NCBI GenBank assembly: GCA_000165345.1
Contig: CM000430.1
Location: forward strand, 1-64,000
Reading direction: 5' to 3'
DNA length: 64,000 nt
Shown here: piece by piece, positions 7,766-35,436 of the stretch
Layout of the letters: each line of letters opens with the position of its first letter
How positions within the stretch are numbered: the stretch's first letter is position 1
Notes under the pieces: generated by a model
Databases searched by the model: none
What the model was told of the DNA's origin: nothing
Seen by the model: only the letters and a program-made list of their open reading frames with translations
Position numbers and translations under genes: made by a program

Positions 7766-7843
7766 TGGGTGTAATATAGTGGGGCTATGAAAAAAAAATA
7801 TTGGGATATTTATAAATATAAATTTAAAAAAAAAACTATGGTT

Positions 7844-12521: not shown

Positions 12522-15500
12522 TTATTCATAGCTTGTTAAAATCTGAGCAAGTTCGTTTTGCGTGGGGATACTTTTAGGGTGGATTGACTTGACAATGTTT
12601 TGCTGAGCTAGAATCCATATATTGTCACAATCTTTAATAGACTCTGCATGATGAGCAACGATAAAAATGTTACAATGCTTAAAGTGAGTAGCTAGAATTC
12701 TACTTATGCTTTGTTGTAGTCCCTGATCTCCATTTGTGTTCGGAGGAGGCTCATCAATTAGAACCATTCTATATTGTCTTGAGTGTATTACCAGCTTAGC
12801 TATAGAAAGGTACCTGAGTTGTGATCCTGATAAAGATCCTGCATTAGAATAAAGATTATTTTTCACTTCATTAATAAAAATAGGGTCAAGTAAACATTTA
12901 TCCAATCCTAGCAAAATTTCACCATCAGTAAGTTCCTCGTACGGGTCCAGGAAGTCTCTGATAGTCCAACCTTTTAGAAGTAAAGGTATTTGGGGAAGAA
13001 CTCCAATAATCCTCCTTCTTTCTTTGATAGAGAGCATGGAAATTGGTGTTTCGTCCAGAAGAATTTGGCCTTTGGTATACTTAACCAGACCAAGGAGGGC
13101 CAGGATTAAGGTAGATTTTCCAGATCCTGTTCTTCCTACAATACCAATCTTCTCGAAAGGTTGAACGTTAATATTTATACCATCCAAAACTACACTATAA
13201 GATGTACCCATAATATCACTATATCCAACTTCTAGATCCATAATCTTGACTCCTGTACGCTTTGAATCGGACTTAAAGATCCCACTCAAAAGCTTATGAC
13301 TCATATTTTCATTTTCCAAAACGATTTTCTTCTTGCCAAAGCTATTAAATCTATAATCTATGACAAAGAATAGATCATCATTAATTTCCTCAATCTCTAC
13401 TGAATCAAATCTCCTATAAGTATAATTACTATTACCAGTGGTAACCTGATTTAGATTTGGATTTGGATTTGGATTCGGATTCTGAATTAGTGTATTATTA
13501 GTATAAAAAGTTCGATTGTTAAAATCATCTTCTCTATTGTTATTAGTGGATGATTTGGTAGAGTTTTCAATGGTGGTTTTTGAGCTTCCATTGAAGCTGT
13601 TATTATCACTATTGACTTCGGTACCTGGTTTTGATCCATTTGATATTAAAGAAAAAATCCTTTCACTACTACACATATCTCTTTCCATGGACGCAAATCT
13701 GTATGTAATTACGCCCGTAGTATCTGATATCAATAAAGAGTAAAGTAAAGCAAGATACCTCCAATTGCTTTCAACTGGTATAAATAGAATAAAAATGATC
13801 AAAGGAAGAGTATATAACTGAAGCCTAATAGCTGCCCATTGACTTGCAATATGTTGAAGTAGCTTTATTCGTTGAAGATGTTCAATCTGAAGTAAGAACT
13901 GGTTAAGGAGATGTCTCTGAGCATTAAAGGCATGAATAACCACAATGCCATTAATTAGCTGAGAAAAGAGGCCATACATTGGAGAAAGAACGGAAAGAGC
14001 AACTTTCTGTGCCCTAATATAAGTAGAAATATAACGTTGACAAACAATTTTATACGTCATAAAGGTAACCATTAATATTATTGGTAATGAATACGGTACT
14101 GCATAGCTTAATATTGAGATTTGGATCAAGAAATCGATTGATGGAACAATTACTGAGGCAATTTTCTTCAAAGGACTCTCGTCCATGACCAACATATCTG
14201 TGCTGAGTCTGTTCATTAGATATGAAGTTGGGGTTGAATCAGAAAGCCAAAATGGAGAAAAGAGAATCTGACGAATTAAGTTGTTATGGGCAATATTGGA
14301 AGCCTTCACACCTCCAATAGCTTCTCCAATAAAAAGTAGAGCGCAAAGAAGTCCTTGGAAAAGTACAATAAATGTGTAAATCCAAATAAAATTTGGATTA
14401 TTACTGGAATCATTATAACTGATAAATGTGTCAGAGTAACGGTCAAACACTGATTTTAATATACAAGAAATGAGTAACACTATGCACCATGCTCTTCCAA
14501 CTAGAGAAAAATACCACCAATAAATTTCAAGAGTATTTCTTTTCCCTGGGCTTATCTCAGTTTCCAAGACCAAGTCTGCTGGCAGGCTTACAGGTTTATA
14601 AAATGTTTTAGAAGAAGTTAGTGTTAATGAAACCTTGTTATTCAAAGTTGATGGACTGGTACATGTTCCAGATGACGTAGGTGTTGTTCCGGTAATTGAA
14701 TGAAAGCTTTCTATACTTATATTTTTACTCTGAAGAGCTGATATCTGGTGGCTAATGCGGTGTATTACATCTAGCTCCTCATTAATATCATTTGAATTGT
14801 CTGTTAACCTTGATTCTAATTTATTGTGAAACTCTAAATTCATTTTATTTAAATTGTTTGGCGCCAAATCCGAGTTGCATGTGGATTCATGCAAATTTTC
14901 TTGCATGCAATCTATGCCCTGTGCGCATACCGGCGAAATATTTTGCTTTTCCACATCATTGTTGCATACAAAGTTGTTAACTTCTAATGAATTGTTGATG
15001 TTTGGTCTAGAATTATTATTAATAAGTGTTTGGTATTCTATTAGAGAGCCTGAAAAGAATATATCATGATTGTTAAGGTGCACAATTTGGATGTTAGTTA
15101 AGCTATTCTCTGGTTGATTGTTGATGAAATATAAGAGAGTAGTAAGGTCAATTGAGAGAATGGTTCTAGAGTATGGGCTATTAAGGAAACCCTTATGTCC
15201 AAAGAGCCTGGAAAATATTTTGGAGCCTACATTTGGGTCAAGGTTGAGAAAAATGTCATCAAATAGGAAAATGGCAGCTTCACTCTGATGGTAGAGGCAT
15301 CTCGCTAGGGCTACTCTTGTTTTTTGTCCTCCACTAAGGGATGTGCCTCCTTCATCAATGACCCTGAGATCACCATCCTTCCAAGATTGAAAATCATGTT
15401 GCAATTGACAAATGCCTGTAACCAGCATGTAGAGTTCTTCATTCCAAGGTTTTCCAAATAATATTGCAGATCTGACAGTGCCTTGAGGAATCCAAGATGT

Positions 15501-17156
15501 TTGGCTTGAGTAAGCGTAACAAAGGTCATTATCTTTGCATTCAAGAATTGAGTTAATGACGGAAGTTTTGCCACATCCTGATGATCCAGTGAAAATAACA
15601 CATTTTCCTAGAGTATTGAGAGAATTCTCTGGATTGCATAGGTGTGACTTAATAATTCGGTGGCATTCATAAATGAAGGAATTATTTGAATTATTTAAGT
15701 ACTGGTCATCTATAGAAATACCATCAGAAGACTTGCAAAACTGCTTAAAACACATAACTTTATTGGAATATTTGCTTACTTCCTCTTGAGCTGGATTCTT
15801 TAAATTTGAAAAGTCAATTGCTCCAGTAAATTCACAATCAGTACTAGTATCATCATCTTCTGAAAAATATTCAAAATAATTATCAGGATGAGAAGAAATA
15901 AAAGTACGAATTCTCAAAAGTGAAATGAGGCCTTCAATAAAAGTTACAGGAATTCCCCTAAGTGGTGATGCAAGGGAATGGAGTATATGTATTGAAGCAA
16001 GAGCTGCTGGTAGGTTCAAAGATGTTCCAATAAAAAGGTAGAAAATAATGAATACAATCAATTGAGTAGCTCTTTGAGTATGGTATTCAAGAAAGCTTCC
16101 AAACTGAGTCCTAACAAGGCGCTTACGGTTTAATGCTGTTTCAATATTTCTACTCTTCATAATTTTATCAAAAGCCAGATCTTCAGCTCCCATTATTCTA
16201 ATAACTCGAAGAATCCCAAGAATATCATGGCAAACCGATAGTCTTTGATCTCTATACTCCATAAATGGTGCCTTATATACAGTTCCAAGTACTTGAAATC
16301 CAAAGCTTGAAATAAAGAAGAACAAAAATGTTATAATACCAGGTAAAGCTGCTATGAGTCCAACCTGCTTTGAAAGTAACTTCCAGGTTATCCAAATATT
16401 CACTGGAAGAAGAATACAGTCTATCAAGGAATTCAAAAATAGCTGTACTGCTGATATATCGCCAACTAACATACTGAATACATCTGGATCTGCAAGAAGG
16501 TATCTAATTGATTTACTATAGGTTATTTTCTCAAGCTCATTTCTTCCTCTTGAAGAGTCTAAGAATTTTTTAAAAGCTATGAATCCATTACTATTCGATG
16601 ATGAATCTTCATCTCCCTCAATTTCAAGCCGGATCTTACTAGGAATCTCATGTAAATCAACACTTACAGCGTTTTCATTGTGCTTTTGCTCTCTTGACTT
16701 TTCGGATCCACGTCCAGATAAAAGTCTATAAAAGATGATCCCCGTCAGGCCTGACTCAAGCCTCATTGTCACTCTCGCAAGGTAAAGCCTTGCATGTGCA
16801 TCAATTACTGACCTTATTAAATAAGCTGAGACAAGAAATATACAGGAATTCAAGGCTCTAATACTTTTGTTATTTGAGACTGTTTGAGTGAAAACTATCG
16901 AGCATAGACTACAAGAAAATAAGAAAATAAGCTTCAAAAATAGAACATTTACAATTGATCTTCCATATACTTGCAATAATGGAAGCCAGAAATGGTTTCT
17001 ATTTTTTGAAAATGATTCTCTTAATCTATATATCCAAATTAAAGGTGAGTCTCCATGAAAAAGTAAAGGATATCCAGGATTTGAATTTCCATTAGTGATA
17101 TATCTACTCCATTGTGAAAGCCATAACAACTGGAAAAAGCTTGACATTAATTCCAA
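12522..17156 (-). CDS. ABC transporter, ABCC/MRP-like full transporter (TMD-NBD-TMD-NBD), array member 1
   Basis: 1544 aa. NBD1 Walker A GSSGCGKTS, signature LSGGQKTRVALARCL, Walker B LFDDIF (DD). NBD2 Walker A GRTGSGKST, degenerate signature LSGSQ, Walker B LIDEPP, H-loop VAHH. Two multi-helix hydrophobic blocks. Confidence 0.9.
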   Translation of the reverse strand: MELMSSFFQLLWLSQWSRYITNGNSNPGYPLLFHGDSPLIWIYRLRESFSKNRNHFWLPLLQVYGRSIVNVLFLKLIFLFSCSLCSIVFTQTVSNNKSIRALNSCIFLVSAYLIRSVIDAHARLYLARVTMRLESGLTGIIFYRLLSGRGSEKSREQKHNENAVSVDLHEIPSKIRLEIEGDEDSSSNSNGFIAFKKFLDSSRGRNELEKITYSKSIRYLLADPDVFSMLVGDISAVQLFLNSLIDCILLPVNIWITWKLLSKQVGLIAALPGIITFLFFFISSFGFQVLGTVYKAPFMEYRDQRLSVCHDILGILRVIRIMGAEDLAFDKIMKSRNIETALNRKRLVRTQFGSFLEYHTQRATQLIVFIIFYLFIGTSLNLPAALASIHILHSLASPLRGIPVTFIEGLISLLRIRTFISSHPDNYFEYFSEDDDTSTDCEFTGAIDFSNLKNPAQEEVSKYSNKVMCFKQFCKSSDGISIDDQYLNNSNNSFIYECHRIIKSHLCNPENSLNTLGKCVIFTGSSGCGKTSVINSILECKDNDLCYAYSSQTSWIPQGTVRSAILFGKPWNEELYMLVTGICQLQHDFQSWKDGDLRVIDEGGTSLSGGQKTRVALARCLYHQSEAAIFLFDDIFLNLDPNVGSKIFSRLFGHKGFLNSPYSRTILSIDLTTLLYFINNQPENSLTNIQIVHLNNHDIFFSGSLIEYQTLINNNSRPNINNSLEVNNFVCNNDVEKQNISPVCAQGIDCMQENLHESTCNSDLAPNNLNKMNLEFHNKLESRLTDNSNDINEELDVIHRISHQISALQSKNISIESFHSITGTTPTSSGTCTSPSTLNNKVSLTLTSSKTFYKPVSLPADLVLETEISPGKRNTLEIYWWYFSLVGRAWCIVLLISCILKSVFDRYSDTFISYNDSSNNPNFIWIYTFIVLFQGLLCALLFIGEAIGGVKASNIAHNNLIRQILFSPFWLSDSTPTSYLMNRLSTDMLVMDESPLKKIASVIVPSIDFLIQISILSYAVPYSLPIILMVTFMTYKIVCQRYISTYIRAQKVALSVLSPMYGLFSQLINGIVVIHAFNAQRHLLNQFLLQIEHLQRIKLLQHIASQWAAIRLQLYTLPLIIFILFIPVESNWRYLALLYSLLISDTTGVITYRFASMERDMCSSERIFSLISNGSKPGTEVNSDNNSFNGSSKTTIENSTKSSTNNNREDDFNNRTFYTNNTLIQNPNPNPNPNLNQVTTGNSNYTYRRFDSVEIEEINDDLFFVIDYRFNSFGKKKIVLENENMSHKLLSGIFKSDSKRTGVKIMDLEVGYSDIMGTSYSVVLDGININVQPFEKIGIVGRTGSGKSTLILALLGLVKYTKGQILLDETPISMLSIKERRRIIGVLPQIPLLLKGWTIRDFLDPYEELTDGEILLGLDKCLLDPIFINEVKNNLYSNAGSLSGSQLRYLSIAKLVIHSRQYRMVLIDEPPPNTNGDQGLQQSISRILATHFKHCNIFIVAHHAESIKDCDNIWILAQQNIVKSIHPKSIPTQNELAQILTSYE

Positions 17157-17900
17157 ATATTCAAATTTTATAATATATTCTCAAATTAATATTTAATCAG
17201 TTAAGTCTTAAAACTTAACTTCACTCAAGAATTAATTATATTCAATTGGTCAAATTATTCCAAAACTGGATAAAAGTTTAAACAGGTATATTTCCTTGAA
17301 TATATAGTACTTTAAACGAATATATTATGTATACAAATACATAAATTCCTATTATATATATATATTATACGCATTATATTATGTGATAATGGGAATATTT
17401 CCTCAAATTAAAGTTTTTATTATTCAGTATAATGGATTAATTTTTAACTGAAGATGATCATAGACATTTTACAATTGTCCGTCTTTTTTTTTCAGTTAAG
17501 AATTTGAAGAAGCCAATTACCTGATCAATAGAAAATGCTTAATATTATGCAATATCAAATAAATATTTATGTTTCAAGAAGTCAATTTATATCACTTCTT
17601 TTGATATCCCAGTGTATTATATTACAAAATGGTGAGCAATTAAAGTAACCAGTTATTGTGATACAAGAATAAAGATAAAAATATTATCGTGTGAAATATC
17701 TTATTCTGATCAAATATTTGAAATTATTCAGTGTGCTAACTTGTTAGCAGCAAAATTGGATTATATATTTATTGCAATAATTTATTATTCAGAAATCAAT
17801 TAAGGGAAACAATCCCAAACTTTAGAAATTTATGAGGGAAACCTTTTCCCCTCGTAATTTTTTTTCGATCTTGATACGAATTTCAAATATTACTTCACAA

Positions 17901-17960
<60 letters not shown>

Positions 17961-18648
17961 AATATGTATTTATTATATGCGTAAATAAATTATATATTAA
18001 TAATTATATTTATCAATTATAATTACATATAATATTTATATATATACTACCGCCATCACAATTTTACCGCCAAAACTCAATAGGTTACTCATGGAAATTG
18101 GCGCCGCATGTAATTTTAATTGCACATGTCAAATAGTGGCATTAAAAAAAAAAATGGGTAATAAAATAAGAAGAATAAAGAATATAAATGGTTTTTCTTT
18201 GTTAAATTAGTCAAAAGACTTAATTGATTTTTTTAACTTGCAAACTTTTGGCCAAACAAGATAATAAATGCGTTATGATCATTAAAATTTACAATTCGTG
18301 GTTAAATACATGAAAGAATTAAAGCTGGCTAAATAAAATAAAAAAATCAAAATAACAATAATAGCTCAAAAAATTATTAAATTAAATCTCATGATTGGTA
18401 ATTCACCTTTTTTAATAATGAAAATGATAAGCAATATAATTTTCAATTTTAAAACTATATCCACTCCATTCCACTCCACAATGAAAAATAAAAATAAATT
18501 ATGAACAATATAACTAACTCTACAAATTAATGTAATAATTAAGAATATTAAGTAGCCACTTTTAATCGATTATTTGTTAAACCAACTGTTAATGAATCAA
18601 ATGGCACTATCATCAAATAATATTAATAGCTGTACCTAGCTAAATGTA

Positions 18649-23412: not shown

Positions 23413-23644
23413 TATATTATATTTCTATGAGGAGTTGAGATTTCTGCCTCAATAGAATATTTTGTAATTTTGGATTCCAAATATTATTATTTATAATTTA
23501 TCACTTTTTCTGTCAATCCTTACCTATTCAGAATAATAAATTATTATTATCAGACATTGACACGGGACGCCATCCATTTTAAATAATTCAACGATATATA
23601 TATTATTTGCCTTAAAATAATAATATATATGGCCAAGCCTAATG

Positions 23645-23660
23645 TTGGCGCGCGCGCCAA
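23645..23660. promoter_or_regulatory. Perfect 16-bp GC palindrome TTGGCGCGCGCGCCAA (overlapping E2F-like cores) in ABC2 upstream region
   Basis: Read directly. An isolated GC island in an AT-rich spacer, about 240 bp upstream of the ABC2 ATG. The palindrome TGCATGCATGCA lies nearby at about 24098-24109. Confidence 0.5.
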
Positions 23661-24194
23661 TTAGGGTATCGGAGTTATATATATATATATATAAATAATC
23701 AATTTAATTAACTTTGAAGGAGTGAAGAAGAACTTTTTTTTAAATCTAGTTAAATTGAAGGATTTTGTCATGCAAAAATGGTGAGAAAAAAAAATCATCA
23801 TCTAAAAAAAGAAATTTTGGGTTGTATATATATTTATATAATATTAAGTTCAAGAATAAGATTAAATAATATAATGATTGAAAGAAAAATATGGAAAGTA
23901 ATATGTAGAAAATAAATCAACAAAAAAATGAGCTTTGAAACTAATAATTATTGTTATTATTACTGAATAATAGATATCAGAATTTTTTAAAAAATTAACA
24001 AATGTTTTTAAATGGTTTACAATAATTTAAAAAATTAATAGAATGATTAAATAATTAAAGGGAATAAGAAATTGAAAAAAAATTTGCATGTATTTGCATG
24101 CATGCAAATATAAATGAAATTACGTATTGAAATAATAATTTAAAAAAAAAAAAAAAGTTAAGTTATTGAGAATCATACTAATATTTTATATTGA

Positions 24195-27100: not shown

Positions 27101-28625
27101 TTTCTCCTTTTTTAATTTGCACTGATAAATCCTTGAAATGATCATCAGTAATAACTGATCTCAAGTCTACCTCATCTGCTAACAGTTTTGTATTCTCGTT
27201 TTTATCCTCATAGCTTTTGTCTTGCTCATTTTTGTCATTATTAGCTATGAATTCATTCGATACCTTGTTTAGTTCAATAAATCTCGATCCTTTAAAATCA
27301 AGAATAACGTCCTTGTCACACTCTTTTTTATTCTTCAAGTTCTTAAATTCAGCTTTAAACCACTTTTCATCAATCTCAGTGTTCTTTAAAAACTCTTGAA
27401 ATCTTCTAAAGGAAATAAATCCCTCTATCATATTAGAAGGAAGCCCTCTAATGGAAGAAACTGTGAAAAATATGTTTAATACTGTAACTCCTGTTGGGCC
27501 AAGACTCTTTAAAGATTTATTCTCAAATTTTGAATAATCATTTATCACTTTTGATATATAAGATACAAAAAGAACCAATTGAGAAATTGCTTGTACATGA
27601 TAATCTAAAAAGGTACCGATCTGAATTAGTATTAATCTTAATCTATTATAAAATGTCTCCATTCTTCTAATCTCAAAGATCTGATTCTTAATCTTAGTTT
27701 CTTGTCCAAGCAACCATATTTGAGTAATCTGTCTAAGCATTTCATGAGTTTTTGAAATTCTTATATCACGATACCTCATAAAAGGAGCTTTAAATAACGA
27801 ACCAATAATCTGAAGAAAAAAACCCAATGAGAAAACTATTAAAAATGTTAATACAGCACTTGTTGCCACTGATCCTACATGTTCTTTTAATAAAATCCAA
27901 GTTAAAAGAAATCTTATTGGAAATATTAATAAATCTAAAGTTGATGTTATTAAATTTGGAAAACTTGAACAATCTGCCAAAACTATATTCATTATATTCG
28001 AAGAACTTGCATTCTTTAATCTCTCAGTATCCTTTAAACCTTTCTCATTTTTTATCCTCCACTTCTCACTATTATATGAATAAAACAATCTTGAATAAGA
28101 TAACCTCAATAGAAAAGCTTCAATACTAAAAGCTAATTTCCCACTATGAAATCTATTTTGAGATTCAAATATAAGGCGGGCCAAATATATCATTATTGCT
28201 TTCACTCCAAAACTTGCATTCTCTCTAGGAGTCTCAGATTTCATAAAACTGGTTAAATAACTTGAAAATATAAATGATACAAAAACATTTCCTATCTTTA
28301 ATAAAGTTACTCCTAAAATTGCTTGCCATTTTGCTTCAATAATTCTCCTTAACAGATTTTCTGAGTTTATCACGCCATTATTCAATAAACTCTCAGTATT
28401 AATATATGATTCATTTACATACTCATCCAGATATTCACCTTCTAATTCTAAAATTGTCTTCTTTTTAAAAAGTATCCTTTCACAAAAATATGGAGTTACC
28501 CAAAAGAATGAAATCTTTTGAAATATTTTTTTTGTTTTCTTAAAAAATCCATTATTGCAATACTTTGCCTCTTCTAAACATGAAGATTCTTTCATATTTA
28601 ACTGTGTGAGTATTATATTCTTCAT
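24195..28625 (-). CDS. ABC transporter, ABCC/MRP-like, array member 3 (most divergent paralogue)
   Basis: 1476 aa. NBD1 GESGSGKTTF, variant signature LSKGQKTRICIARTLY, IFDDIF. NBD2 GRTGSGKSSL, LSNSQIRYLSF, LIDEPP, H-loop ITHD. Asn-rich inserts. Confidence 0.88.
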   Translation of the reverse strand: MKNIILTQLNMKESSCLEEAKYCNNGFFKKTKKIFQKISFFWVTPYFCERILFKKKTILELEGEYLDEYVNESYINTESLLNNGVINSENLLRRIIEAKWQAILGVTLLKIGNVFVSFIFSSYLTSFMKSETPRENASFGVKAIMIYLARLIFESQNRFHSGKLAFSIEAFLLRLSYSRLFYSYNSEKWRIKNEKGLKDTERLKNASSSNIMNIVLADCSSFPNLITSTLDLLIFPIRFLLTWILLKEHVGSVATSAVLTFLIVFSLGFFLQIIGSLFKAPFMRYRDIRISKTHEMLRQITQIWLLGQETKIKNQIFEIRRMETFYNRLRLILIQIGTFLDYHVQAISQLVLFVSYISKVINDYSKFENKSLKSLGPTGVTVLNIFFTVSSIRGLPSNMIEGFISFRRFQEFLKNTEIDEKWFKAEFKNLKNKKECDKDVILDFKGSRFIELNKVSNEFIANNDKNEQDKSYEDKNENTKLLADEVDLRSVITDDHFKDLSVQIKKGEKVFVIGESGSGKTTFIQKILLNENLLLNNMNEHEYGHFYYNYYLLNNLPIGYVSQIPWIPSGTVRSIILFGSEYIEDRYMRIIECCNLVTDFQQWKEGDLKQIDEGGSILSKGQKTRICIARTLYFFFSNMDSNSKSEYCPLFIFDDIFSNLDHFVANKLFYNLFNSNGILSNSSVIITIDQRSLSNFLKYSSTLDSKPSLNLYNSFHYLCIDHFNYSPNSFKIPQQVLINDFESIFTDTRIDTLVNNDHHHMIFSPKNPNHTHSDPIYNVQNNSYTMNFNHYPEISRQNTESDKLISNNNSSIINSFKEKVVNKGHISLNSYNWYLSKVGRPIIIIIMFILLSKSALERLSELLFTGNSTHAHTLKRFLLLYSLSTGLSLTFGGLVFILEAIACTFGANEIYKSIFDSLLIKIPNIIPIHIILNRIGGDMLIIDTCIVKSIISSLAPVLTIIGQTIFIVYTFPYFTPFFLIWIMLIIKPICLKFISSYREYQRFSISLFSSICGIFSGTQLGGLTIAMLRKQEMLRSQASENIDLYIKVRYIQLASTQWAGFWMNIAMTPVGIILNIILIQLGFQSQSSSAFICIYYFLSIAESISSLIYKFVQLEKEMCSVERIKNYIETFTLLNEYIQKNEQNSYIEEYNNNQEQIPPQFNSNDIEHMNHFSTLVNIVPIFPENHSLQDSYNQQGLFIKDLQISTLNYFSISREFNKESIDNLKFETLLLINGILKAYPGNIIGIIGRTGSGKSSLINSIMGLHLQTNGTILLNNVKINNIKNKNQLIALLPQENLFMDGYTIRSLLDPFSQYSDHLILEALNKIKLLDFILLLPLKLETIIISQDSNEYNFDHNFQRNQSIHNTIILSNSQIRYLSFIQFIISPLKYQLLLIDEPPYNVTFSYNNKTFETPSIHNIINSTFKHCPSLIITHDIGIFDNCDIFWIIKNNQLHKVIYKQFGELPNNYIWNELSDLK

Positions 28626-29208
28626 TAAACTAAATAAACAAATTCCACATTATAGAAAGAATAAAACTTTTAAACATCTATCAAGACGTTCTGATAAATT
28701 GTTCAATAATTGAGCTTTTATTTCCACCCCAAATCTTGCAAATCCTCTAGATTCTCTTTTTCGCAAATAATAGATGCAAATTTATGCTTTTCTGCTATTA
28801 CATAGATAAGAAAAATTCCTGTGTATAGTATCGATTTTCTATTTGTATCAAACAACCTTATATTACTTAGTTCATACGCAATTTTAACTTTTTTCCGCTT
28901 TTTTTTTCTTTTGGATTTTTTTTTCTTTTTTTTTACGTTAATCTTTGACTATAACTCTGCAGAAAAGGCGCCAAACTTCGGTACCCTCTCTTTAAAAATG
29001 CTAGTATCGGGGGGAAAAACAAAAAAAAAAAAAAAAGAAATTTAGTGTGAAAATATAATTATAAAACCAACTATATATAGGACAAGAATGGAGACTTGTC
29101 TATCTCAATATTTTCTCATATATTAACAATAAGGATCAATATATTCAATAACAGTAATATATTAAATCAGTACTATCATATTAGTTTCGATTAAGCAAAT
29201 CTTCAATA

Positions 29209-32200
29209 TCATTTTTGTTTAGTATTTTTGCTTGCTTCAAACTCCACACATTCAGTTTCTGCAGTTTGAAAAAGCTGTAACATTTGATCCTGAGAAAAAT
29301 TTGAATTCAAATCAGTCTCGAATAATATCCGTCCTTTCCCCAGTACCCATACTTTTTTACAATTTTGTAAAGACGCTGCATGATGAGCAACTACAAAAAC
29401 TGTACAATGAGGGAAATATTGTCTTAATAATTGATGTATAGGTACATAATCAATAGTATCTTCTTGAAATACATCAGGTGGAGGCTCATCAACTAGAATT
29501 AATCTGTAGCTCTTTGCATTTAAAACTAATCTTGCTAATGATAAATATCTTAATTGAGAATCTGATAAATATCTCTCATCGTCTGGAGTCTCAGAATGAC
29601 TTGAATTTATACAGTTAGTCATCTTTGATTTTTGTTCTGTCTTGATTGAATTCTCTGAAATATTATTACTATTATATGTAGCTCCTGAACTATTATCTGG
29701 TACTATTACAGCATCAAGCATCTTCCCACCTGGTAACGACCTAATTAAACTTGATAAACCACATAAATTAAGAGCATCCCAAATATCATCCTTTGAGAAT
29801 TTTTGGTATGGATCTAAAAAGTTGCGAACTGTCCAACCTTTCAGAATTAAGGGTACCTGTGGAAGAATACCTATCAATTTATTTCTATCTTCATTACTCA
29901 TTTGATCAATTGGAATATTATCTAAAAATACTCTGCCATTAGTTATTGGAACTAAACCTAAAATTGCCTGTAAAAATGTTGATTTACCACTACCTGTTCT
30001 GCCTATTACTCCAATATGTTCGTTTGGACCAGTGCAAGCATTCATCTTATTAATTGCTGGAGGGAAGTAAATTTCATCAGGATTATCTGCTGGATTACTA
30101 TTTGGACGTCTATATCTAACCTCTAAATCAATGATCTTTACACCACTTTTTATATTTTCTATATTCTTCTCTTGTTTTTCTATATCTTCAACCTTACATG
30201 GAGAAGAAAATGGTAAATTATAAATCTTCTCCTTATTCAAAATCTCATAATATTGATGTAACCTCTCCACAGAAATCATCTCTTTCTCCATATTTACATA
30301 TGATGTTATTGTCATACCAATATTTGAAGCAATTGATTCTGAGTAATATAATGCTATACCAACAATACCAGCCCCTGGACCTGATCCTAATCTTGTATTC
30401 ATATCGGATGTCTGACCTTCTAATAAAGTATCTGATGGACTAGAAAAGAAATCAGAAATTAAAGCGGTGAAAAAGTTTGAAGACATTGCTGTTAATGGAA
30501 AAGTTAAAAGTTGAGTTCTTAAAGAAGACCATTCTTTTGAACATAGTTGCATAAATTTAGCTCTTTGAACCATATCAATAATCTCGGTACCCTGTAACAT
30601 ATAATGATCTTGAGCACGAAAGGCTCTAATTATTGGCCCTCCACTCATTGCTTCAGAGAATACTCCACATAATGGTGAATATAATACAAGACACATTCTT
30701 TGAAGTTCACGGGAAGATCTTGAAAAATATCTTGCAACTGCATAATAAATACCCAATCCAATCATTGGAAAAAGAAATACTACTGAAGGTTCTGCTGATA
30801 CTACTACAATACATTGAAATAAAACATTCATTGCTCCAACTAAAACCGTAGCAATCTTCATTATTGGGATATTATCTACCATAAGTAGATCTGTACTGAA
30901 TCTACTAAGAACTCTACCAACAGGGTTAGAATCAAAAAAGTTTAATGGAGCATTTAAAACATCAACCAATAAATTATCATGAATTTCTATGGCTGCTTTA
31001 ATACCACAAATTGCTTCTCCAATAAAAACCATTGAGCTCACAGCTAATTGTATTAGTGCTAAAATAATATAAATTAATGCAAATTTTTTACCCTCAAAGA
31101 TGGATTTGTCAACATCAGTAAGAGGAGCTCTTGAAGTATATGAACCCATATAATAATCTGTACCTTTATCAAACATAGTTTTTGAATAACATAATATAAA
31201 TAATGCTATAGTCCAACTCCATTTAAGCTTTGAAAAGTACCAATAATAAGTCTTCTTTGAAACCATACCAGTAACTCTCCCCTCTTTTTCCATAACCTTT
31301 CTTAAAGTCTCACATTTAGTTGAAGGATTCGTAGATAGATACATTGTATTATTATTCGTTGTAGTGTCATATTTATTGTTATTATTATAAGAAAAATCAT
31401 CATCGTTACTAAATTCCTCAGAATGAGGTCCATTATCTTTATTAGTAATATCCAAATTTATACATCTCCAATCTGAAAGATAAGATTGGTACATTCCAAA
31501 GAATTGAGGAGAGCCATCATCTAGAACAAGAATTTTTGGATTAAAATCCTTGAGCAGTTTACTAGTACTCATTAAGAATGATAGAATTGTATGATCAATA
31601 GATAATATTGTAGCAACTTTTCTTAATAATCCATTTTTACCAAATAATTTTTTAAATATTGTTTTACTAACTCCAGGATCCAAGCTTACAAAAATATCAT
31701 CGAGTAGATATAAAATAGAATCTTGAGAAGAAGGTAAACAGGAGATTGATAGATTACTATTATTGTAAGATGAGCTTTCAGATTCTATTATAGGTTCTGA
31801 TAAAGGAGAAGATTCTTGATTATAAAATAAGTAATCAGGAAGAGAATATAAAGCTCTAGCTAAACAAATCCTAGCTCTTTGTCCTCCACTTAATGAACAA
31901 CCTCCTTCATCAACAATTCTTAAGTCTCCATCTTGCCAGGATTTGAAATCTTGATTAAGCTGACAACAATCTAATATAACATCATATTTAAGCTGATTAA
32001 GAGGTCTACCAAATAGAATGATATTTTTGATACTTCCGTTAGGAATCCAAGGTATCTGAGATGCATAAGCTATAGGACTTTTAGTTTCTCTTGGTTGAAC
32101 ATAAGTTAATCCAGTTTCTTGAACAATTTCATCTAATACAGCATTCATTAAAGAAGTTTTTCCACTTCCTGGTGATCCAACAACAATAATAGTTTCCCCA

Positions 32201-34059
32201 AGAGATAATGATAAGTTAATATTCTTTAATTTAAATCTTGTATCAGAGTTATTTAAAACAGAAGTTGTACTGAATTCATAATTTCGATTAAGTAGATGAG
32301 TATGTTCATTAGCTGTATCATTATTATACTTATTCCTTTTACGTGTTTCTTTATTCCAAGTATATGATGAATTTCTCATAACAACAACATCCTTACTGGT
32401 TATATCTTTTAGATTGGCTAGATGATTACCTTTATTGCTAGTAGTATATCTTGAATAGATATTTGAATTTGTATGATGATCAAAATTCCCAATAATAGAA
32501 TCTTCTGGAGCTTCTTTATCAGAGATAGATGATAAGGTTTGATATCTAAGGGAAAAAAGTCTTGTAGAATCAGGAGAACTTGTGTTTTCTCTATCATCAG
32601 TAATTAGTCTAGAATTTGCAATATTTCTGGTATCATCAAGAGAATTGGCGCCAGAATTGTGCATGCATGCACGTTCAATAGGAGTAGGGGTTTTTGTATT
32701 AGGTGAAAGATCATGGAAATTATTGGATGTAATGGAGTGTGAATAACAATGTCTGAGATCAAGAGGTCTAGATCTAAGAAATGATTGGAATCTATTAAAT
32801 GAAATGAGTGCTTCAATAGTGGCAAAAGAATACATGGATAAATTTCTGCAAGGACCAAGTAAGGAGAACAATACTTTTAGAGTAGTAACTCCAACAGAGG
32901 CTGGAATAACGAGAGGGACATTATGTTCCCTAGAGTATTGAATTCCTTTATATACTGCAAGTAAGAATAGAACAAGTTGAGCAATTCCAGACATTTGATA
33001 TCCAATCCAATTACCAACTAAAGATAATGTATTACGAATTTTGTTAGCTTTCATTTCAACTTGTCTACATTTCATGACTCTATCAGTAGCAATATTTTGA
33101 TACCCCATCATTTGTAAAGTTCTGACTTCACTAAGAACTTCATGGCATCTATCAATACGTTTATCTCTAGCTGACATGAAAGGTGCTTTATAAGTTGATG
33201 CAATAATTTGGCATGTAAATGATATGATTAAGAATACAATTAATGTAAAGATTCCAACAATGGTTGTAGAGGATCCAAGAGAATCTTTGAGTACAAAATA
33301 TGCAATAATAAGTCTCAAAGGGAAAATAAAGCATTCAATTGCATTAATAAGGAATCCCTCAACAGCTAATGTATCAACAACGATAAGATTAAATACATTT
33401 GATGATATAACAGCCTCACTGTCTTGGATTCCTCTAGACTCTGCATGACGTAGAATAATGGATTTTCGTGCAGATTTTCCAATAGCAGATTCTTCAAATG
33501 ATATTGCAGAAGTCTTCCAATGGACAACTCTTCTAAAAGTCATAGAAATTAATGAAGCTTGTATTCTTAAGCTAACTCTTCCACACCAATAACTATATTG
33601 AGTTTCCACAAGTATTTTGAGTAACGTAAGTACAATAAATACACTTCCCATATAGTAGTTGTTTTTGTTATTATTAAGATTATTTTTATTTGAGGAATCA
33701 GGTTCTAAGCTTGAAACAAAACTTCTCAATGATAATGTAGCTAATGTTTGCAAAACATCAAAAAAGACTTTCAAGAGTAGAACCATAAGGCATTGAAACC
33801 AAAAAACCTTAATTAAAGGCTTGTATATTCTTAAACCTTTTCCTTTAAGTTTACTGATTCTTTCTTCTTGATTGACAGCCTTTTCTAAATAATTAGTCCA
33901 TATTGGAATGTCATCATTTGCAGGTAGACGAGGGAGATCATCAGTGTTAACTCCTGGTCCTAAGAACTTAGACATCCAAGGTGACAACCAAGTAAAAAAT
34001 AGCTTACTCCATAGGGTATTACCCCCAGCAAATTCAATATTTTTTTTATTGAATTTCAT
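29209..34059 (-). CDS. ABC transporter, ABCC/MRP-like, array member 4 (closest to member 2)
   Basis: 1616 aa. NBD1 GSPGSGKTSL, LSGGQRARICLARALY, LLDDIF. NBD2 GRTGSGKSTF, LSDSQLRYLSLARLV, LVDEPP, VAHHAASLQNC. Shares WTVR(D/N)FLDP and SLPGGKMLD blocks with member 2. Confidence 0.9.
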   Translation of the reverse strand: MKFNKKNIEFAGGNTLWSKLFFTWLSPWMSKFLGPGVNTDDLPRLPANDDIPIWTNYLEKAVNQEERISKLKGKGLRIYKPLIKVFWFQCLMVLLLKVFFDVLQTLATLSLRSFVSSLEPDSSNKNNLNNNKNNYYMGSVFIVLTLLKILVETQYSYWCGRVSLRIQASLISMTFRRVVHWKTSAISFEESAIGKSARKSIILRHAESRGIQDSEAVISSNVFNLIVVDTLAVEGFLINAIECFIFPLRLIIAYFVLKDSLGSSTTIVGIFTLIVFLIISFTCQIIASTYKAPFMSARDKRIDRCHEVLSEVRTLQMMGYQNIATDRVMKCRQVEMKANKIRNTLSLVGNWIGYQMSGIAQLVLFLLAVYKGIQYSREHNVPLVIPASVGVTTLKVLFSLLGPCRNLSMYSFATIEALISFNRFQSFLRSRPLDLRHCYSHSITSNNFHDLSPNTKTPTPIERACMHNSGANSLDDTRNIANSRLITDDRENTSSPDSTRLFSLRYQTLSSISDKEAPEDSIIGNFDHHTNSNIYSRYTTSNKGNHLANLKDITSKDVVVMRNSSYTWNKETRKRNKYNNDTANEHTHLLNRNYEFSTTSVLNNSDTRFKLKNINLSLSLGETIIVVGSPGSGKTSLMNAVLDEIVQETGLTYVQPRETKSPIAYASQIPWIPNGSIKNIILFGRPLNQLKYDVILDCCQLNQDFKSWQDGDLRIVDEGGCSLSGGQRARICLARALYSLPDYLFYNQESSPLSEPIIESESSSYNNSNLSISCLPSSQDSILYLLDDIFVSLDPGVSKTIFKKLFGKNGLLRKVATILSIDHTILSFLMSTSKLLKDFNPKILVLDDGSPQFFGMYQSYLSDWRCINLDITNKDNGPHSEEFSNDDDFSYNNNNKYDTTTNNNTMYLSTNPSTKCETLRKVMEKEGRVTGMVSKKTYYWYFSKLKWSWTIALFILCYSKTMFDKGTDYYMGSYTSRAPLTDVDKSIFEGKKFALIYIILALIQLAVSSMVFIGEAICGIKAAIEIHDNLLVDVLNAPLNFFDSNPVGRVLSRFSTDLLMVDNIPIMKIATVLVGAMNVLFQCIVVVSAEPSVVFLFPMIGLGIYYAVARYFSRSSRELQRMCLVLYSPLCGVFSEAMSGGPIIRAFRAQDHYMLQGTEIIDMVQRAKFMQLCSKEWSSLRTQLLTFPLTAMSSNFFTALISDFFSSPSDTLLEGQTSDMNTRLGSGPGAGIVGIALYYSESIASNIGMTITSYVNMEKEMISVERLHQYYEILNKEKIYNLPFSSPCKVEDIEKQEKNIENIKSGVKIIDLEVRYRRPNSNPADNPDEIYFPPAINKMNACTGPNEHIGVIGRTGSGKSTFLQAILGLVPITNGRVFLDNIPIDQMSNEDRNKLIGILPQVPLILKGWTVRNFLDPYQKFSKDDIWDALNLCGLSSLIRSLPGGKMLDAVIVPDNSSGATYNSNNISENSIKTEQKSKMTNCINSSHSETPDDERYLSDSQLRYLSLARLVLNAKSYRLILVDEPPPDVFQEDTIDYVPIHQLLRQYFPHCTVFVVAHHAASLQNCKKVWVLGKGRILFETDLNSNFSQDQMLQLFQTAETECVEFEASKNTKQK

Positions 34060-35436
34060 ATCAATATTTCAAAATAAATTAAATTTCAATCAAAACTCCA
34101 ATTCTTTTGTTCTTTATTGAATATTCATTATTCTATTTGATAATTGTGATGTTTATTAATTTGTTGTATTTTGACAAGTATTCAATCTAAAATAACTTCT
34201 AATTAAATAAGATAAAAATCTATGATTAAATTAGCATGTCATTTTAGCTCTAAACAGTGTCTTTGGATAGCTTCTATTGGCTAAGCATATTAAGAGACTA
34301 GTCGATCCTCTTGAGCTTTTTCAACCAAATACTTTAATAACTTTCTTCTACTAGCTAAATAATTTCGAAGCATTGCCCGCCAAAAATATTGACCTAATAC
34401 GCTTTCCACTATCTGGGTATCTACGCGCGCCGTCTACTTTAGACCTATTGTCAGAAATTTACTAGGAATAATATAATGATTAATAGATCAGATACTTAAA
34501 GGAGTAGGAAATTTTTTAAAGAATTTATTTCTATTAATTTATTTGTTATTAAAGGGCAAAAATATGGTGTATAATTTTAATAAAATAATATGTATTTGTA
34601 TAAATACTAAAAAGATTTGTTAAAATAATAGAATAAATATTAAACGAATTATTAATATGATTACTTTATAATTTTGAAATTTGATATCAGTTCATGTATA
34701 ATTGAACTTTTAATGTTTATTATATGAAAGAAACATTGATGTTATTTTGCTGTATCTATTAAGTACTTTTTATTTTCTTCTTTTTAGATGGGGTATAAAA
34801 TTTAATCAAGAATATTTTTCTAATAAGAGCAAAAAAAAGTCTGAATACTTATGATTAGTAAACTCTATATTTCTAATCTCTCACATTTCAACCCAATTTT
34901 TTACCCAATATAGCTAACTAAATATTCATCTACAGCTCTAGAAATAAATTAAAATAAACCTATTCAAATTGATTAAATTAAACTCTTTCCACATAAATCT
35001 TCTTTCATAGTTGTGCATATTTAATTATTCATTTTTTTTAGCAATATTTGTTACCGCTAACACATGTAATAACTTTTGTTGGCGCCTATATTTCAGAATT
35101 TATGCATGTGGACGAGTCAGATTACATTGAAGAACAAAATAAAATAGATTGGGAAAGGAAAAGAGAGAGAAACGAGAAAATAACGAATGTTTCCATTCCT
35201 TTAATTAGTCATTTAACTCGTCTAGATTATTCACTTTTCAGTTTTTTTTTCTTTTATGAAATTAATATTTATACTAGTATTTCTTAGTGATAGTAGTAAA
35301 AGGCATTAGAATGTTGATTTGGAAGAAAATAAAAAAATATAAATTAAAATAAAAATGATGGTTGGGATGAGTCTGGTGTTAAAGAAAGAAAGTATAAAGT
35401 ATATTAGGAAGGAAATTTGTAATAGATAAAAATCAA

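What the first reader, a model, noticed from the sequence alone, without database searches (positions are those of the whole stretch)
12522..34059. Head-to-tail tandem array of four ABCC-type transporter paralogues with unequal divergence
Four full-length ABCC genes (1476-1616 aa) sit consecutively on the minus strand, each with its own 0.6-1.5 kb upstream spacer. Members 2 and 4 share long identical blocks (LSDSQLRYLSLARLV, YFPHCTVFVVAHHAASLQNC, WTVR(D/N)FLDP, SLPGGKMLD) and so look like the most recent duplicates. Member 3 lies between them and is the most divergent. All four show the canonical ABCC asymmetry. NBD1 has a consensus LSGGQ signature but a DD Walker B. NBD2 has a degenerate signature (LSGSQ, LSDSQ or LSNSQ) but an intact DE Walker B, and the H-loop reads HH rather than HR. 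The array looks like a locally expanded efflux/conjugate-pump family next to hsp70. Paralogue-specific expression or substrate specialisation is plausible.
Basis: partly seen in the sequence, partly recalled or inferred. Interest (0 to 1): 0.6.

Follow-up and report, generated by a model that had tools for sequence, protein, structure and literature searches.

The report
Known Cryptosporidium ABCC transporter gene cluster
The four tandem genes are the already annotated ABC transporter cluster cgd2_60–cgd2_90 of Cryptosporidium parvum chromosome 2, and the duplications that made them are ancient (shared by the whole genus), not recent.

Summary
Four intact, head-to-tail ABCC-type full transporters lie on the minus strand at 12522–34059. 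The window is C. parvum Iowa II chromosome 2, and the genes are cgd2_60, cgd2_70 (CpABC2), cgd2_80 and cgd2_90. The literature already names this the "ABC transporter gene cluster". The evolutionary reading is only partly right. The same four genes, in the same order and with the same neighbours, occur in C. ubiquitum, C. felis, C. xiaoi and the deep-branching C. andersoni; C. muris shows M1–M3 with those neighbours. Each member forms a 100%-supported genus-wide orthogroup. The paralogues share only 31–40% identity. The M2/M4 identical peptide blocks have scrambled third codon positions and are invariant genus-wide, so they reflect purifying selection, not recency. M2 and M4 are simply the slowest-evolving copies. 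NJ pairs them, but a rate-aware likelihood test disfavours it (RELL 0.05). A fifth, unlinked paralogue beside DHFR-TS nests inside the four. NBD asymmetry is confirmed, with corrections: M3 reads LSKGQ and THD, all four NBD1s lack the H-loop histidine, and the NBD2 D-loop is PPP. These traits mark an apicomplexan/chromerid ABCC subfamily. Published proximity labelling places cgd2_70 and cgd2_90 at the feeder organelle. Published dN/dS>1 values were not reproduced here (0.09–0.19).

The parts
12522..17147 (-). cgd2_60 (member 1), 1541-aa ABCC-type full transporter; NBD1 Walker A at residue 521, NBD2 Walker A at residue 1338
   Evidence: Exact match to EAZ51210.1/XP_001388185.1 of C. parvum Iowa II; cluster members named CPCDC_2g60 and CHM_2g60. 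Published cgd2_60 primer maps at 14303-14324. Pfam ABC_tran x2 plus ABC_membrane.
17148..18648 (-). 1501-bp upstream spacer of cgd2_60, with an E2F-like TTGGCGC box at 18098-18104 and an (AT)n/(ATAA)n palindromic tract at 17903-18013
   Evidence: No ORF of 50 aa or more. No Rfam hit. Box conserved in chipmunk genotype I and C. ubiquitum. Overall identity is about the 4-fold-site background.
18649..23412 (-). cgd2_70 = CpABC2 ('ABCC4' in the Cryptosporidium nomenclature), 1587 aa; Walker A at residues 608 and 1345
   Evidence: Exact match to EAK87389.1/XP_625377.1. cgd2_70 primer maps at 19368-19389. Named 'ABCC4, CpABC2' and enriched in feeder-organelle proximity labelling in the PMC10774378 supplement.
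23413..24194 (-). 782-bp upstream spacer of cgd2_70, with two TTGGCGC boxes (23645-23651 and 23654-23660)
24195..28625 (-). cgd2_80 (member 3), 1476 aa, the fastest-evolving copy; NBD1 signature LSKGQ, NBD2 signature LSNSQ, H-loop THD; Walker A at residues 514 and 1248
   Evidence: Exact match to EAK87390.1/XP_625378.1. Both published cgd2_80 primer pairs map here, and the 266-bp amplicon spans 25560-25825. Motifs. dN/dS is 0.19-0.22, so the gene is still under purifying selection.
28626..29208 (-). 583-bp upstream spacer of cgd2_80, with a TTGGCGC box at 28968-28974
29209..34059 (-). cgd2_90 (member 4; 'ABCC5' in the Cryptosporidium nomenclature), 1616 aa, the slowest-evolving copy; Walker A at residues 628 and 1353
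   Evidence: Exact match to EAK87388.1. Lies between cgd2_80 and cgd2_100 as fixed by primer mapping. Enriched in feeder-organelle proximity labelling. Top 60 PDB hits are all ABCC.
34060..35436 (-). 1377-bp upstream spacer of cgd2_90, with a TTGGCGC box at 35079-35085
10256..11755 (-). Nop56/58 gene, the conserved syntenic anchor immediately downstream of member 1 (context, not part of the array)
   Evidence: Pfam Nop plus NOP5NT. The same neighbour follows the M1 orthologue in C. muris and C. andersoni.

Best explanation
The region is the annotated ABC transporter cluster cgd2_60-cgd2_70-cgd2_80-cgd2_90 near the left end of C. parvum chromosome 2.

What the genes are: four separately transcribed, intronless genes. 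Each encodes a 'short' ABCC/MRP-type full transporter (lasso region, TMD1, NBD1, TMD2, NBD2, no TMD0).

Origin: they are old paralogues. The duplications happened in the Cryptosporidium stem lineage, after it separated from the sampled gregarine, coccidian, piroplasm and chromerid relatives and before the gastric and intestinal clades split. Since then the genes have been kept one-to-one, in the same order, under purifying selection and without detectable gene conversion. A fifth paralogue, next to DHFR-TS and probably cgd4_4440, belongs to the same radiation. The order of the duplications is not resolved. The M2-M4 resemblance comes from their slow evolution and from an invariant NBD2 core, not from recency.

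Mechanism (inferred from motifs): one catalytically competent ATP site and one degenerate site. The competent site combines NBD2 Walker A, Walker B 'DE' and H-loop His with the NBD1 LSGGQ signature. The degenerate site combines NBD1 Walker A, 'DD' and a missing H-loop His with the NBD2 LSxSQ signature; it should bind ATP but not hydrolyse it. ATP-driven dimerisation would power outward transport of organic anions, conjugates or xenobiotics.

[quoted passage not shown] The paralogue CpMRP1 (cgd7_4520) acts there in tolerance to deoxycholate. The substrates of the four genes are unknown.
For: Identity: exact protein matches to C. parvum Iowa II entries; published gene-specific primers map to the expected ORFs; the cluster is named in PMC6532270.

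ABCC membership: top 60 PDB hits are all ABCC for M4 and for M3. The M4 N-terminus aligns co-linearly with MRP4 and CFTR from residue ~16. NBD1 'DD' matches fish and plant ABCC5.

Antiquity: the same four-gene order occurs in C. xiaoi, C. felis, C. ubiquitum, chipmunk genotype I and C. andersoni. C. muris shows M1-M3 with the same Nop56-APE-NifS-hsp70 flank. Each member is a 100% bootstrap orthogroup that recapitulates the gastric/intestinal split.

Lineage specificity: the five-gene clade is 99-100% supported against Lankesteria, Besnoitia, Babesia, Theileria and Vitrella homologues.

No recent exchange: 3rd-position divergence, at most 71% nucleotide identity; blocks invariant genus-wide.

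Purifying selection: dN/dS 0.08-0.22.

Motif anatomy.

Independent promoters: each spacer has its own TTGGCGC box, and the motif occurs 26 times against 0.57 expected in the window.

Localisation: PMC10774378 supplement lists cgd2_70 with 14-16 and cgd2_90 with 9-17 peptides with biotin and 0 with vehicle. The CpMRP1 analogy comes from PMC12477738.
Against: - No transport, ATPase or localisation experiment was or could be done here; substrates and direction of transport are inferred by analogy.
- cgd2_60 and cgd2_80 do not occur in the held supplementary text of the feeder-organelle study, so their site of action is unknown.
- M3 has a non-consensus NBD1 signature (LSKGQ) that contributes to the supposedly competent site, and it has no significant Pfam TMD hit, so it may work differently.
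- The replacement of the NBD2 D-loop by PPP has unknown consequences for NBD communication.
- The deep phylogeny rests on NJ and on a home-made likelihood evaluator (BLOSUM62-derived matrix, within-clade branch lengths fixed). The two methods disagree on whether M2 and M4 are sisters.
- The identity of the fifth gene with cgd4_4440 is inferred from its DHFR-TS neighbour and from literature annotation, not from the C. parvum sequence.
Confidence: 0.85

Rival explanations
1. The array is a recent local expansion in which members 2 and 4 are the youngest duplicates (or were recently homogenised by gene conversion), and member 3 is an older, diverged copy lying between them.
For: M2-M4 is the most similar pair (39.5%). 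They share 15-20-residue identical blocks. NJ trees pair them (82-97%), most strongly in the NBDs.
Against: All four are one-to-one orthologues across the genus, including the gastric clade. The M2-M4 pair is equally similar in C. andersoni (41.9%). Third codon positions inside the identical blocks have diverged, the best nucleotide identity is 68-71% and the longest exact match is 27 nt. The blocks are invariant in both orthogroups genus-wide. The likelihood test gives M2+M4 a RELL of 0.05. The ML stem path M3-M5 (0.91) is no longer than M2-M4 (1.03).
Confidence: 0.03
2. Two-gene block duplication. An ancestral pair A-B was duplicated as a unit to give A-B-A'-B' (M1-M2-M3-M4). M1/M3 and M2/M4 would then be true but ancient sister pairs, and the fifth gene a later dispersed copy of M3. 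This would explain why the look-alike copies alternate along the chromosome.
For: NJ topology ((M2,M4),(M1,(M3,M5))) with 82-90% and 98-100% support. It needs the fewest genomic events to explain the interleaved order. The ML-best tree has the same unrooted ingroup shape and differs only in where the root sits. dlnL of 18.1 with SE 11.7 (z = 1.55) is not a formal rejection.
Against: RELL support is only 0.05, and M4 as the first branch gets 0.94. Slow-site and TMD2 analyses do not recover M2+M4. M1, M3 and M5 are all long branches that distance methods tend to group. The second-best ML tree, (((M1,M2),(M3,M5)),M4), is only 1.96 lnL units worse than the best.
Confidence: 0.22
3. Member 3 (cgd2_80) is a decaying or non-transporting copy: relaxed constraint, loss of recognisable TMDs, degenerate signature and H-loop, low expression.
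For: It has no significant Pfam ABC_membrane hit. It is the fastest-evolving orthogroup (42% parvum-andersoni). It reads LSKGQ and THD. It has the lowest RT-PCR signal of the three members assayed in the PMC3305300 supplement. It does not occur in the held supplementary text of the feeder-organelle study.
Against: An intact ORF of similar length is retained at the same position in every species examined. dN/dS is 0.19-0.22, with no 100-codon window above 0.54. Walker A, the Q-loop, Walker B DE and the H-loop His of NBD2 are intact. Hydrophobic segments are present in both TMD regions. The top PDB hits are all ABCC, and some alignments span the TMDs.
Confidence: 0.1

Closest known systems
[quoted passage not shown]
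   Same: It is the same locus. The protein sequences are identical and the published primers map to it.
   Different: Nothing differs. This work adds genus-wide synteny, a phylogeny that includes a fifth paralogue, the motif anatomy, and a failure to reproduce the reported dN/dS>1.
CpMRP1 (cgd7_4520), the C. parvum MRP-type transporter that is delivered to the feeder organelle and confers tolerance to deoxycholic acid (PMC12477738)
   Same: Same organism, same ABCC family, the same host-parasite interface for cgd2_70 and cgd2_90 (proximity labelling), and likewise polymorphic between isolates.
   Different: It is a different paralogue on chromosome 7. No genetic or substrate data exist for the chromosome 2 genes. 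Whether cgd7_4520 shares the DEPP-type NBD2 was not examined here.
Short mammalian ABCCs (MRP4/ABCC4, MRP5/ABCC5, CFTR)
   Same: Domain order without TMD0. The N-terminal lasso region aligns from residue ~16. NBD1 Walker B is DD, NBD2 has a degenerate signature, and NBD2 keeps the catalytic DE.
   Different: Only about 25-31% identity. The NBD1 H-loop His is lost. The NBD2 D-loop (ATAxxD) is replaced by PPP(D) plus an insertion. The residue after the H-loop His is H, N or D instead of R. Long low-complexity insertions occur in NBD1 and in the linker.
Apicomplexan/chromerid 'DEPP-type' ABCC homologues (Besnoitia besnoiti PFH32458, Babesia gibsoni KAK1444565, Theileria equi and T. orientalis, Lankesteria, Vitrella CEM13183 and CEM17385)
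   Same: They share hhhhDEPP after Walker B, HC..(A/T)H[HND], and GWT[VIL]R after the Q-loop. They form one clade against animal, plant and fungal ABCCs (100%).
   Different: The Cryptosporidium genes form their own exclusive radiation of at least five, plus a sister sixth group. The tandem four-gene array is known only in Cryptosporidium.

Membership tests
ABC subfamily C (ABCC/MRP/CFTR/SUR) | Single polypeptide with the order TMD1-NBD1-TMD2-NBD2 | tested here: met
   Two ABC_tran hits per protein, and ABC_membrane hits for M1, M2 and M4. Hydrophobic clusters lie before each NBD in all four, including M3.
ABC subfamily C (ABCC/MRP/CFTR/SUR) | Closest sequence relatives are ABCC proteins, not ABCB, ABCG or other subfamilies | tested here: met
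   The top 60 PDB sequences for M4 and for M3 are all ABCC (plant ABCC2/13, MRP1-5, Ycf1, SUR1/2, CFTR). The non-Cryptosporidium database hits are ABCC5/MRP-type. M1 and M2 were not searched individually but group with M3 and M4 in every tree.
ABC subfamily C (ABCC/MRP/CFTR/SUR) | Asymmetric NBDs: the NBD1 Walker B catalytic Glu is replaced by Asp, the NBD2 signature is degenerate, and NBD2 keeps Walker B DE | tested here: met
   hhhhDD in NBD1 aligns with LLLDD of fish and plant ABCC5. NBD2 reads LS[GDN]SQ and hhhhDE.
ABC subfamily C (ABCC/MRP/CFTR/SUR) | N-terminal lasso (L0) region preceding TMD1 | tested here: inconclusive
   M4 residues 16-182 align with CFTR 11-169 (E = 6.8e-7), and residues 16-370 with MRP4 18-341 (E = 5.9e-4). 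This is sequence-level only; no structure was predicted, and M1-M3 were not tested separately.
ABC subfamily C (ABCC/MRP/CFTR/SUR) | ATP-dependent export of organic anions or conjugates | not testable with these tools
   No biochemical data exist for these four proteins. The inference comes from the family and from CpMRP1 (PMC12477738).
Canonical ABCC NBD architecture (intact NBD1 H-loop His and NBD2 D-loop) | NBD1 H-loop histidine (VTH) and NBD2 D-loop (A-T/S-A/S-x-x-D) present | tested here: not met
   NBD1 has SID, TIS or TID in place of VTH. NBD2 has DEPPP(D) plus an insertion in place of DEATAAID. The genes are therefore ABCC members of a divergent subfamily.
Apicomplexan/chromerid DEPP-type ABCC subfamily (label used here) | NBD2 hhhhDEPP, HC..(A/T)H[HNDR] H-loop context, GWT[VIL]R after the Q-loop, and monophyly against other ABCCs | tested here: met
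   The motifs are present in all four genes and in Besnoitia, Babesia, Theileria, Lankesteria and Vitrella homologues. The clade has 100% NJ bootstrap.
Recent tandem duplicates or gene-conversion tracts | High nucleotide identity, or long identical DNA tracts, between copies | tested here: not met
   Best blastn identity is 68-71% over 394-726 nt. The longest exact match is 27 nt. Third positions have diverged inside the identical peptide blocks.
Feeder-organelle transporters of Cryptosporidium | Localisation at the host-parasite interface | not testable with these tools
   Literature only. cgd2_70 and cgd2_90 were enriched by CpGT1-miniTurbo labelling; cgd2_60 and cgd2_80 do not occur in the held supplementary text (PMC10774378 supplement). 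None of the four has been epitope-tagged in the papers read.

The most novel reading that the evidence does not exclude
The chromosome 2 array plus the DHFR-TS-linked fifth gene is a Cryptosporidium-specific radiation of a mechanistically distinct ABCC lineage shared by apicomplexans and chromerids. That lineage has a single catalytic site, no NBD1 H-loop histidine and a proline-replaced NBD2 D-loop. Within the array, labour would be split. The slowly evolving cgd2_70 and cgd2_90 would be core exporters at the feeder organelle. The fast-evolving cgd2_60 and cgd2_80 would have shifted to other stages, compartments or host-specific substrates and so contribute to host adaptation. If the alternating A-B-A'-B' order reflects a two-gene block duplication, the pairs might even work as co-expressed units.
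Probability: 0.25. Interest if true: 0.45.

Novelty: already known. Interest (0 to 1): 0.22.

Why it matters
Cryptosporidium devotes about two thirds of its 21 ABC genes to ABCC-type pumps. At least eight of these sit at the feeder organelle, the interface that controls what reaches the parasite, including drugs and toxic gut metabolites. One paralogue, CpMRP1, has been shown to affect virulence.

Three results from this work guide future study of the chromosome 2 cluster:
- The cluster is an ancient, conserved, purifying-selected set, not a recent and rapidly adapting expansion. That changes how its members should be prioritised as drug-exposure or host-range determinants.
- The published 'positive selection' label on cgd2_70 and cgd2_90 should be rechecked.
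- Functional studies should also include the fifth paralogue.

None of this is a new kind of system.

Tried and rejected
1. Using the four-sequence alignment as a profile query returned almost only M1 orthologues, because of the word-based prefilter. Separate M3 and M4 searches were needed.
It was rerun with residues 560-1616.
C. andersoni was used instead.
4. Gene conversion or recent homogenisation between M2 and M4 was rejected on nucleotide evidence.
5. An adjacent-pair duplication history, ((M1,M2),(M3,M4)), is disfavoured (dlnL 35.7, SE 15.4).
6. I tested whether the 1.5-kb M1 spacer is unusually conserved, for instance because of a hidden exon or ncRNA. Overall identity equals the 4-fold-site background, there is no ORF of 50 aa or more, and there is no Rfam hit. 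It was dropped.
7. The inverted repeats flagged in the spacers are AT and ATAA low-complexity tracts. They were dropped.
8. CpABC1, the classic feeder-organelle ABC protein, was considered as a possible identity for one of the genes. It is cgd1_700, elsewhere in the genome.
9. The slow-site parsimony quartet count had too few informative sites (12) to decide anything.
Full report
**1. What is there**

The window contains four long minus-strand ORFs at 12522-17156, 18649-23412, 24195-28625 and 29209-34059.
- Each has two ABC_tran ATPase domains. Members 1, 2 and 4 (M1, M2, M4) also have significant ABC_membrane hits.
- Member 3 (M3) has none, but it has hydrophobic clusters in both expected transmembrane regions.
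- The upstream spacers are 1501, 782, 583 and 1377 bp.
- The flanking genes are typical of a compact, AT-rich eukaryote: hsp70, a NifS-like aminotransferase, an AP endonuclease, Nop56/58, a DEAD-box helicase, Brix and a synaptojanin-like phosphatase.
- hsp70 is not adjacent to the array. Three genes and 7.3 kb separate it from M1.

**2. Identity**

- All four proteins are exact matches to C. parvum Iowa II GenBank entries: EAZ51210, EAK87389, EAK87390 and EAK87388. Cluster members carry tags such as CPCDC_2g60.
- Published gene-specific primers map as follows: cgd2_60 to M1, cgd2_70 to M2, both cgd2_80 pairs to M3 (266-bp amplicon at 25560-25825), cgd2_30 to the NifS-like gene, and cgd2_100 to the ORF just beyond M4.
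- The genes are therefore cgd2_60, cgd2_70, cgd2_80 and cgd2_90.
- M1 starts at the ATG at 17147 (1541 aa). The TTG start in the ORF list is an artefact of the bacterial start-codon rule.
- The supplementary table of PMC10774378 lists cgd2_70 as 'ABCC4, CpABC2' and cgd2_90 as 'ABCC5'.
- CpABC1, the classic feeder-organelle protein, is cgd1_700 and lies elsewhere.

**3.

- The quoted M2/M4 identical blocks exist.
- In NBD1 all four have an intact Walker A and a Walker B ending in DD. This aligns with LLLDD of fish and plant ABCC5, so it is the canonical ABCC substitution.
- The NBD1 signature is LSGGQ in M1, M2 and M4 but LSKGQ in C. parvum M3. C. andersoni M3 still has LSGGQ.
- The NBD2 signatures are LSGSQ, LSDSQ, LSNSQ and LSDSQ. 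Walker B is hhhhDE.
- The NBD2 H-loop reads AHH in M1, M2 and M4, but THD in M3.
The NBD1 H-loop histidine (VTH in canonical ABCCs) is absent from all four (SID, TIS or TID). The NBD2 D-loop (DEATAAID) is replaced by DEPPP(D) followed by an insertion.
- A low-complexity insertion of very variable length lies between the NBD1 signature helix and Walker B. It is absent in M1 and about 150 residues long in C. andersoni M4.

**4. ABCC membership**

- The top 60 PDB sequences for M4 and for M3 are all ABCC proteins: plant ABCC2/13, MRP1-5, Ycf1, SUR and CFTR.
- The M4 N-terminus aligns co-linearly from residue ~16 with residue ~18 of MRP4 and ~11 of CFTR. TMD1 aligns with MRP1 from residue ~313-345, after its TMD0.
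- These are therefore 'short' ABCCs without TMD0.

**5. Age of the array**

Fetching the DNA around orthologues showed the same four genes, in the same order and orientation, in:
- C. xiaoi
- C. felis
- C. ubiquitum
- chipmunk genotype I
- the gastric species C. andersoni, where the array is followed by the same Nop56, AP endonuclease and NifS-like genes

C. muris shows M3-M2-M1-Nop56-APE-NifS-hsp70 in the stretch that could be fetched. C. serpentis and C. bovis also have M4 orthologues.

In NJ trees each member is a 100%-bootstrap orthogroup whose internal branching follows the gastric/intestinal split. All duplications therefore predate the crown radiation of the genus.

**6. Similarity against recency**

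| Comparison | M1 | M2 | M3 | M4 |
|---|---|---|---|---|
| Orthologue identity, C. parvum to C. andersoni | 49.6% | 57.0% | 42.2% | 65.6% |

- Paralogue identities in C. parvum run from 30.8% (M2-M3) to 39.5% (M2-M4). The ranking is the same in C. andersoni, where M2-M4 is 41.9%.
- The most similar pair is thus made of the two slowest-evolving copies.
- Third codon positions inside the identical peptide blocks are largely different (8/20, 10/15). The best nucleotide identity between any two copies is 68-71%, and the longest exact match is 27 nt.
- The NBD2 block LSDSQLRYLSLARLV..YRLILVDEPPPD is invariant in both the M2 and M4 orthogroups from C. parvum to C. andersoni.
- The blocks therefore reflect strong purifying selection on an old core, not recent duplication or conversion.

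**7. A fifth member and the deep topology**

An exhaustive search with the NBD1-TMD2-NBD2 part of M4 found another Cryptosporidium protein with the same subfamily motifs: P0099 in C. andersoni, P0240 in C. muris and P0108 in C. felis.
- It lies next to an amino-acid transporter and DHFR-TS. It is therefore probably the orthologue of cgd4_4440. This is an inference, not verified against the C. parvum sequence.
- In C. muris it sits about 40 kb from the cluster, on the same contig and on the opposite strand.

NJ results:
- All five genes form one clade at 99-100%, against gregarine (Lankesteria), coccidian (Besnoitia), piroplasm (Babesia, Theileria) and chromerid (Vitrella) homologues.
- M1+M3+M5 is supported at 100% and M2+M4 at 82%.
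- Per-domain NJ analyses disagree. The NBDs give M2+M4 at 97-100%, TMD1 gives M1+M3 at 87%, and TMD2 and the slow sites are unresolved.

Likelihood test: I wrote an evaluator (rate matrix derived from BLOSUM62, +F, four gamma categories, alpha 1.3; 18 taxa, 1192 sites). It scored all 105 rooted arrangements of the five orthogroups, with within-clade branch lengths fixed.

| Hypothesis | RELL | dlnL from best (SE) |
|---|---|---|
| Best tree: (M4,(M2,(M1,(M3,M5)))) | 0.38 | 0 |
| M1+M2+M3+M5 clade, i.e. M4 branches first | 0.94 | – |
| M3+M5 sisters | 0.77 | – |
| M2+M4 sisters | 0.05 | 18.1 (11.7) |
| The four tandem genes form a clade without M5 | 0.005 | 31.7 |
| ((M1,M2),(M3,M4)) | – | 35.7 (15.4) |

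- The second-best tree, (((M1,M2),(M3,M5)),M4), is only 1.96 units worse than the best, so the order of duplications is not resolved.
- The two-gene block-duplication scenario (A-B to A-B-A'-B') would neatly explain the alternation. It has the same unrooted shape as the ML-best tree and is disfavoured but not formally rejected.

**8. Selection**

| Species pair (Nei-Gojobori dN/dS) | cgd2_60 (partial) | cgd2_70 | cgd2_80 | cgd2_90 |
|---|---|---|---|---|
| C. parvum vs chipmunk genotype I | 0.09 | 0.15 | 0.19 | 0.09 |
| C. parvum vs C. ubiquitum | 0.08 | 0.18 | 0.22 | 0.13 |

- Against chipmunk genotype I, no 100-codon window exceeds 0.54.
- This does not reproduce the gene-wide dN/dS of 1.24-1.25 reported for cgd2_70 and cgd2_90 against the same species (PMC6532270), nor the 1.80 against C. 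bovis (PMC7371110).
- The method is simple, but a ten-fold discrepancy is unlikely to come from the estimator.

**9. Regulation and expression**

- Each spacer carries its own GC-rich TTGGCGC (E2F-like) box. The motif occurs 26 times in the window against 0.57 expected, mostly between genes.
- Overall the spacers evolve at about the 4-fold-site rate. They contain no ORF of 50 aa or more and no Rfam family.
- In the PMC3305300 RT-PCR supplement, cgd2_60, cgd2_70 and cgd2_80 are all detected, with cgd2_80 lowest. cgd2_90 does not occur in that supplement.
- In CpGT1-miniTurbo proximity labelling, cgd2_70 and cgd2_90 are strongly enriched (0 peptides in controls). cgd2_60 and cgd2_80 do not occur in the held supplementary text.

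**10. Mechanism (inferred)**

- The motif pattern predicts one hydrolytic site: NBD2 Walker A, Walker B and H-loop together with the NBD1 signature.
- It predicts one degenerate, ATP-binding site: NBD1 Walker A, DD and no H-loop His, together with the NBD2 LSxSQ signature. This is as in other ABCCs but more extreme.
- The proteins would drive export across the membranes of the host-parasite interface.
- The paralogue CpMRP1 (cgd7_4520) provides the functional precedent: feeder-organelle localisation, tolerance to deoxycholate and an effect on virulence (PMC12477738).
- The substrates of the four genes are unknown.

**11. Subfamily**

- hhhhDEPP, HC..(A/T)H[HND] and GWT[VIL]R occur in 23 of the 141 best representatives scanned. 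Those that could be named are from Besnoitia, Babesia, Theileria, Lankesteria and Vitrella.
- These proteins form a clade against animal, plant and fungal ABCCs.
- The 'HH' H-loop and the PPP D-loop are therefore old traits of an apicomplexan/chromerid ABCC lineage, not peculiarities of this array.

**12. Verdict**

This is a real but already annotated and named locus. The incremental findings are:
- genus-wide conservation of the array;
- a fifth paralogue nested among the four;
- the motif anatomy of the NBDs;
- purifying selection where positive selection had been reported.

Noticed in passing
window 18649-23412 and 29209-34059; L006 595-5445 and 11226-15956: The published gene-wide dN/dS>1 for cgd2_70 (1.24) and cgd2_90 (1.25) against chipmunk genotype I (PMC6532270), and 1.80 for cgd2_90 against C. 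bovis (PMC7371110), are not reproduced. Nei-Gojobori on true orthologue alignments gives 0.15 and 0.09, with no 100-codon window above 0.54.
   Followed up: partly
L007 10001-13984 (C. andersoni); L008 3001-6987 (C. muris DS989729.1 756080-760066): A fifth paralogue of the same DEPP-type subfamily lies beside an amino-acid transporter and DHFR-TS. In C. muris it is about 40 kb from the four-gene cluster, on the same contig and the opposite strand. In C. parvum the probable orthologue (cgd4_4440) is on another chromosome, which implies a rearrangement between the gastric and intestinal lineages.
   Followed up: partly
L003 1898-9972 (C. felis GCA_014529505.1, JABXOJ010000013.1): The deposited C. 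felis annotation has a 1878-aa minus-strand gene call with no Pfam hit lying over the plus-strand ORF 4061-8926. That ORF encodes the cgd2_90 orthologue (71% identical to C. parvum). This looks like a wrong-strand gene model.
   Followed up: partly
window, 26 sites, e.g. 1736-1745, 14858-14867, 25903-25912, 51659-51668: TTGGCGC occurs 26 times against 0.57 expected from shuffles, mostly in intergenic regions (an E2F-like promoter box). Palindromic TTGGCGCCAA copies also lie inside the coding regions of cgd2_60 and cgd2_80, and a single TTGGCGC lies inside cgd2_90 at 32645-32651.
   Followed up: partly
window 31800-32000 approx. (cgd2_90 NBD1) and the equivalent positions in the other members; L004 1-3973: A low-complexity insertion of very variable length lies between the NBD1 signature helix and Walker B. 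It is absent in cgd2_60, about 25 aa in cgd2_70, about 50 aa in C. parvum cgd2_90 and about 150 aa in C. andersoni M4.
   Followed up: no
window 26700-26715 approx. (cgd2_80 NBD1 signature): C. parvum cgd2_80 has LSKGQ where the C. andersoni orthologue keeps LSGGQ. This is a lineage-specific change in the signature that contributes to the supposedly catalytic ATP site.
   Followed up: no
window 17903-18013; L005 within 19682-20874: An (ATAA)n/(AT)n palindromic microsatellite sits in the cgd2_60-cgd2_70 spacer. The C. ubiquitum assembly has a run of N at the corresponding place, so the tract probably breaks short-read assemblies.
   Followed up: no
window 18649-23412 and 24195-28625: GenBank holds alternative gene models for the same C. 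parvum genes: cgd2_70 at 1463 against 1587 aa, and cgd2_80 at 1466 against 1476 aa. The start codons or N-terminal models are therefore not settled between annotations.
   Followed up: no
window 43-1380 (-): A 445-aa ORF in a 19% GC stretch at the very start of the window has no Pfam hit. It was not examined further.
   Followed up: no
window 54272-59062 (+): A fifth very long ORF (1596 aa) is not an ABC transporter. It is a synaptojanin-like phosphoinositide phosphatase (SacI plus a 5-phosphatase domain).
   Followed up: yes
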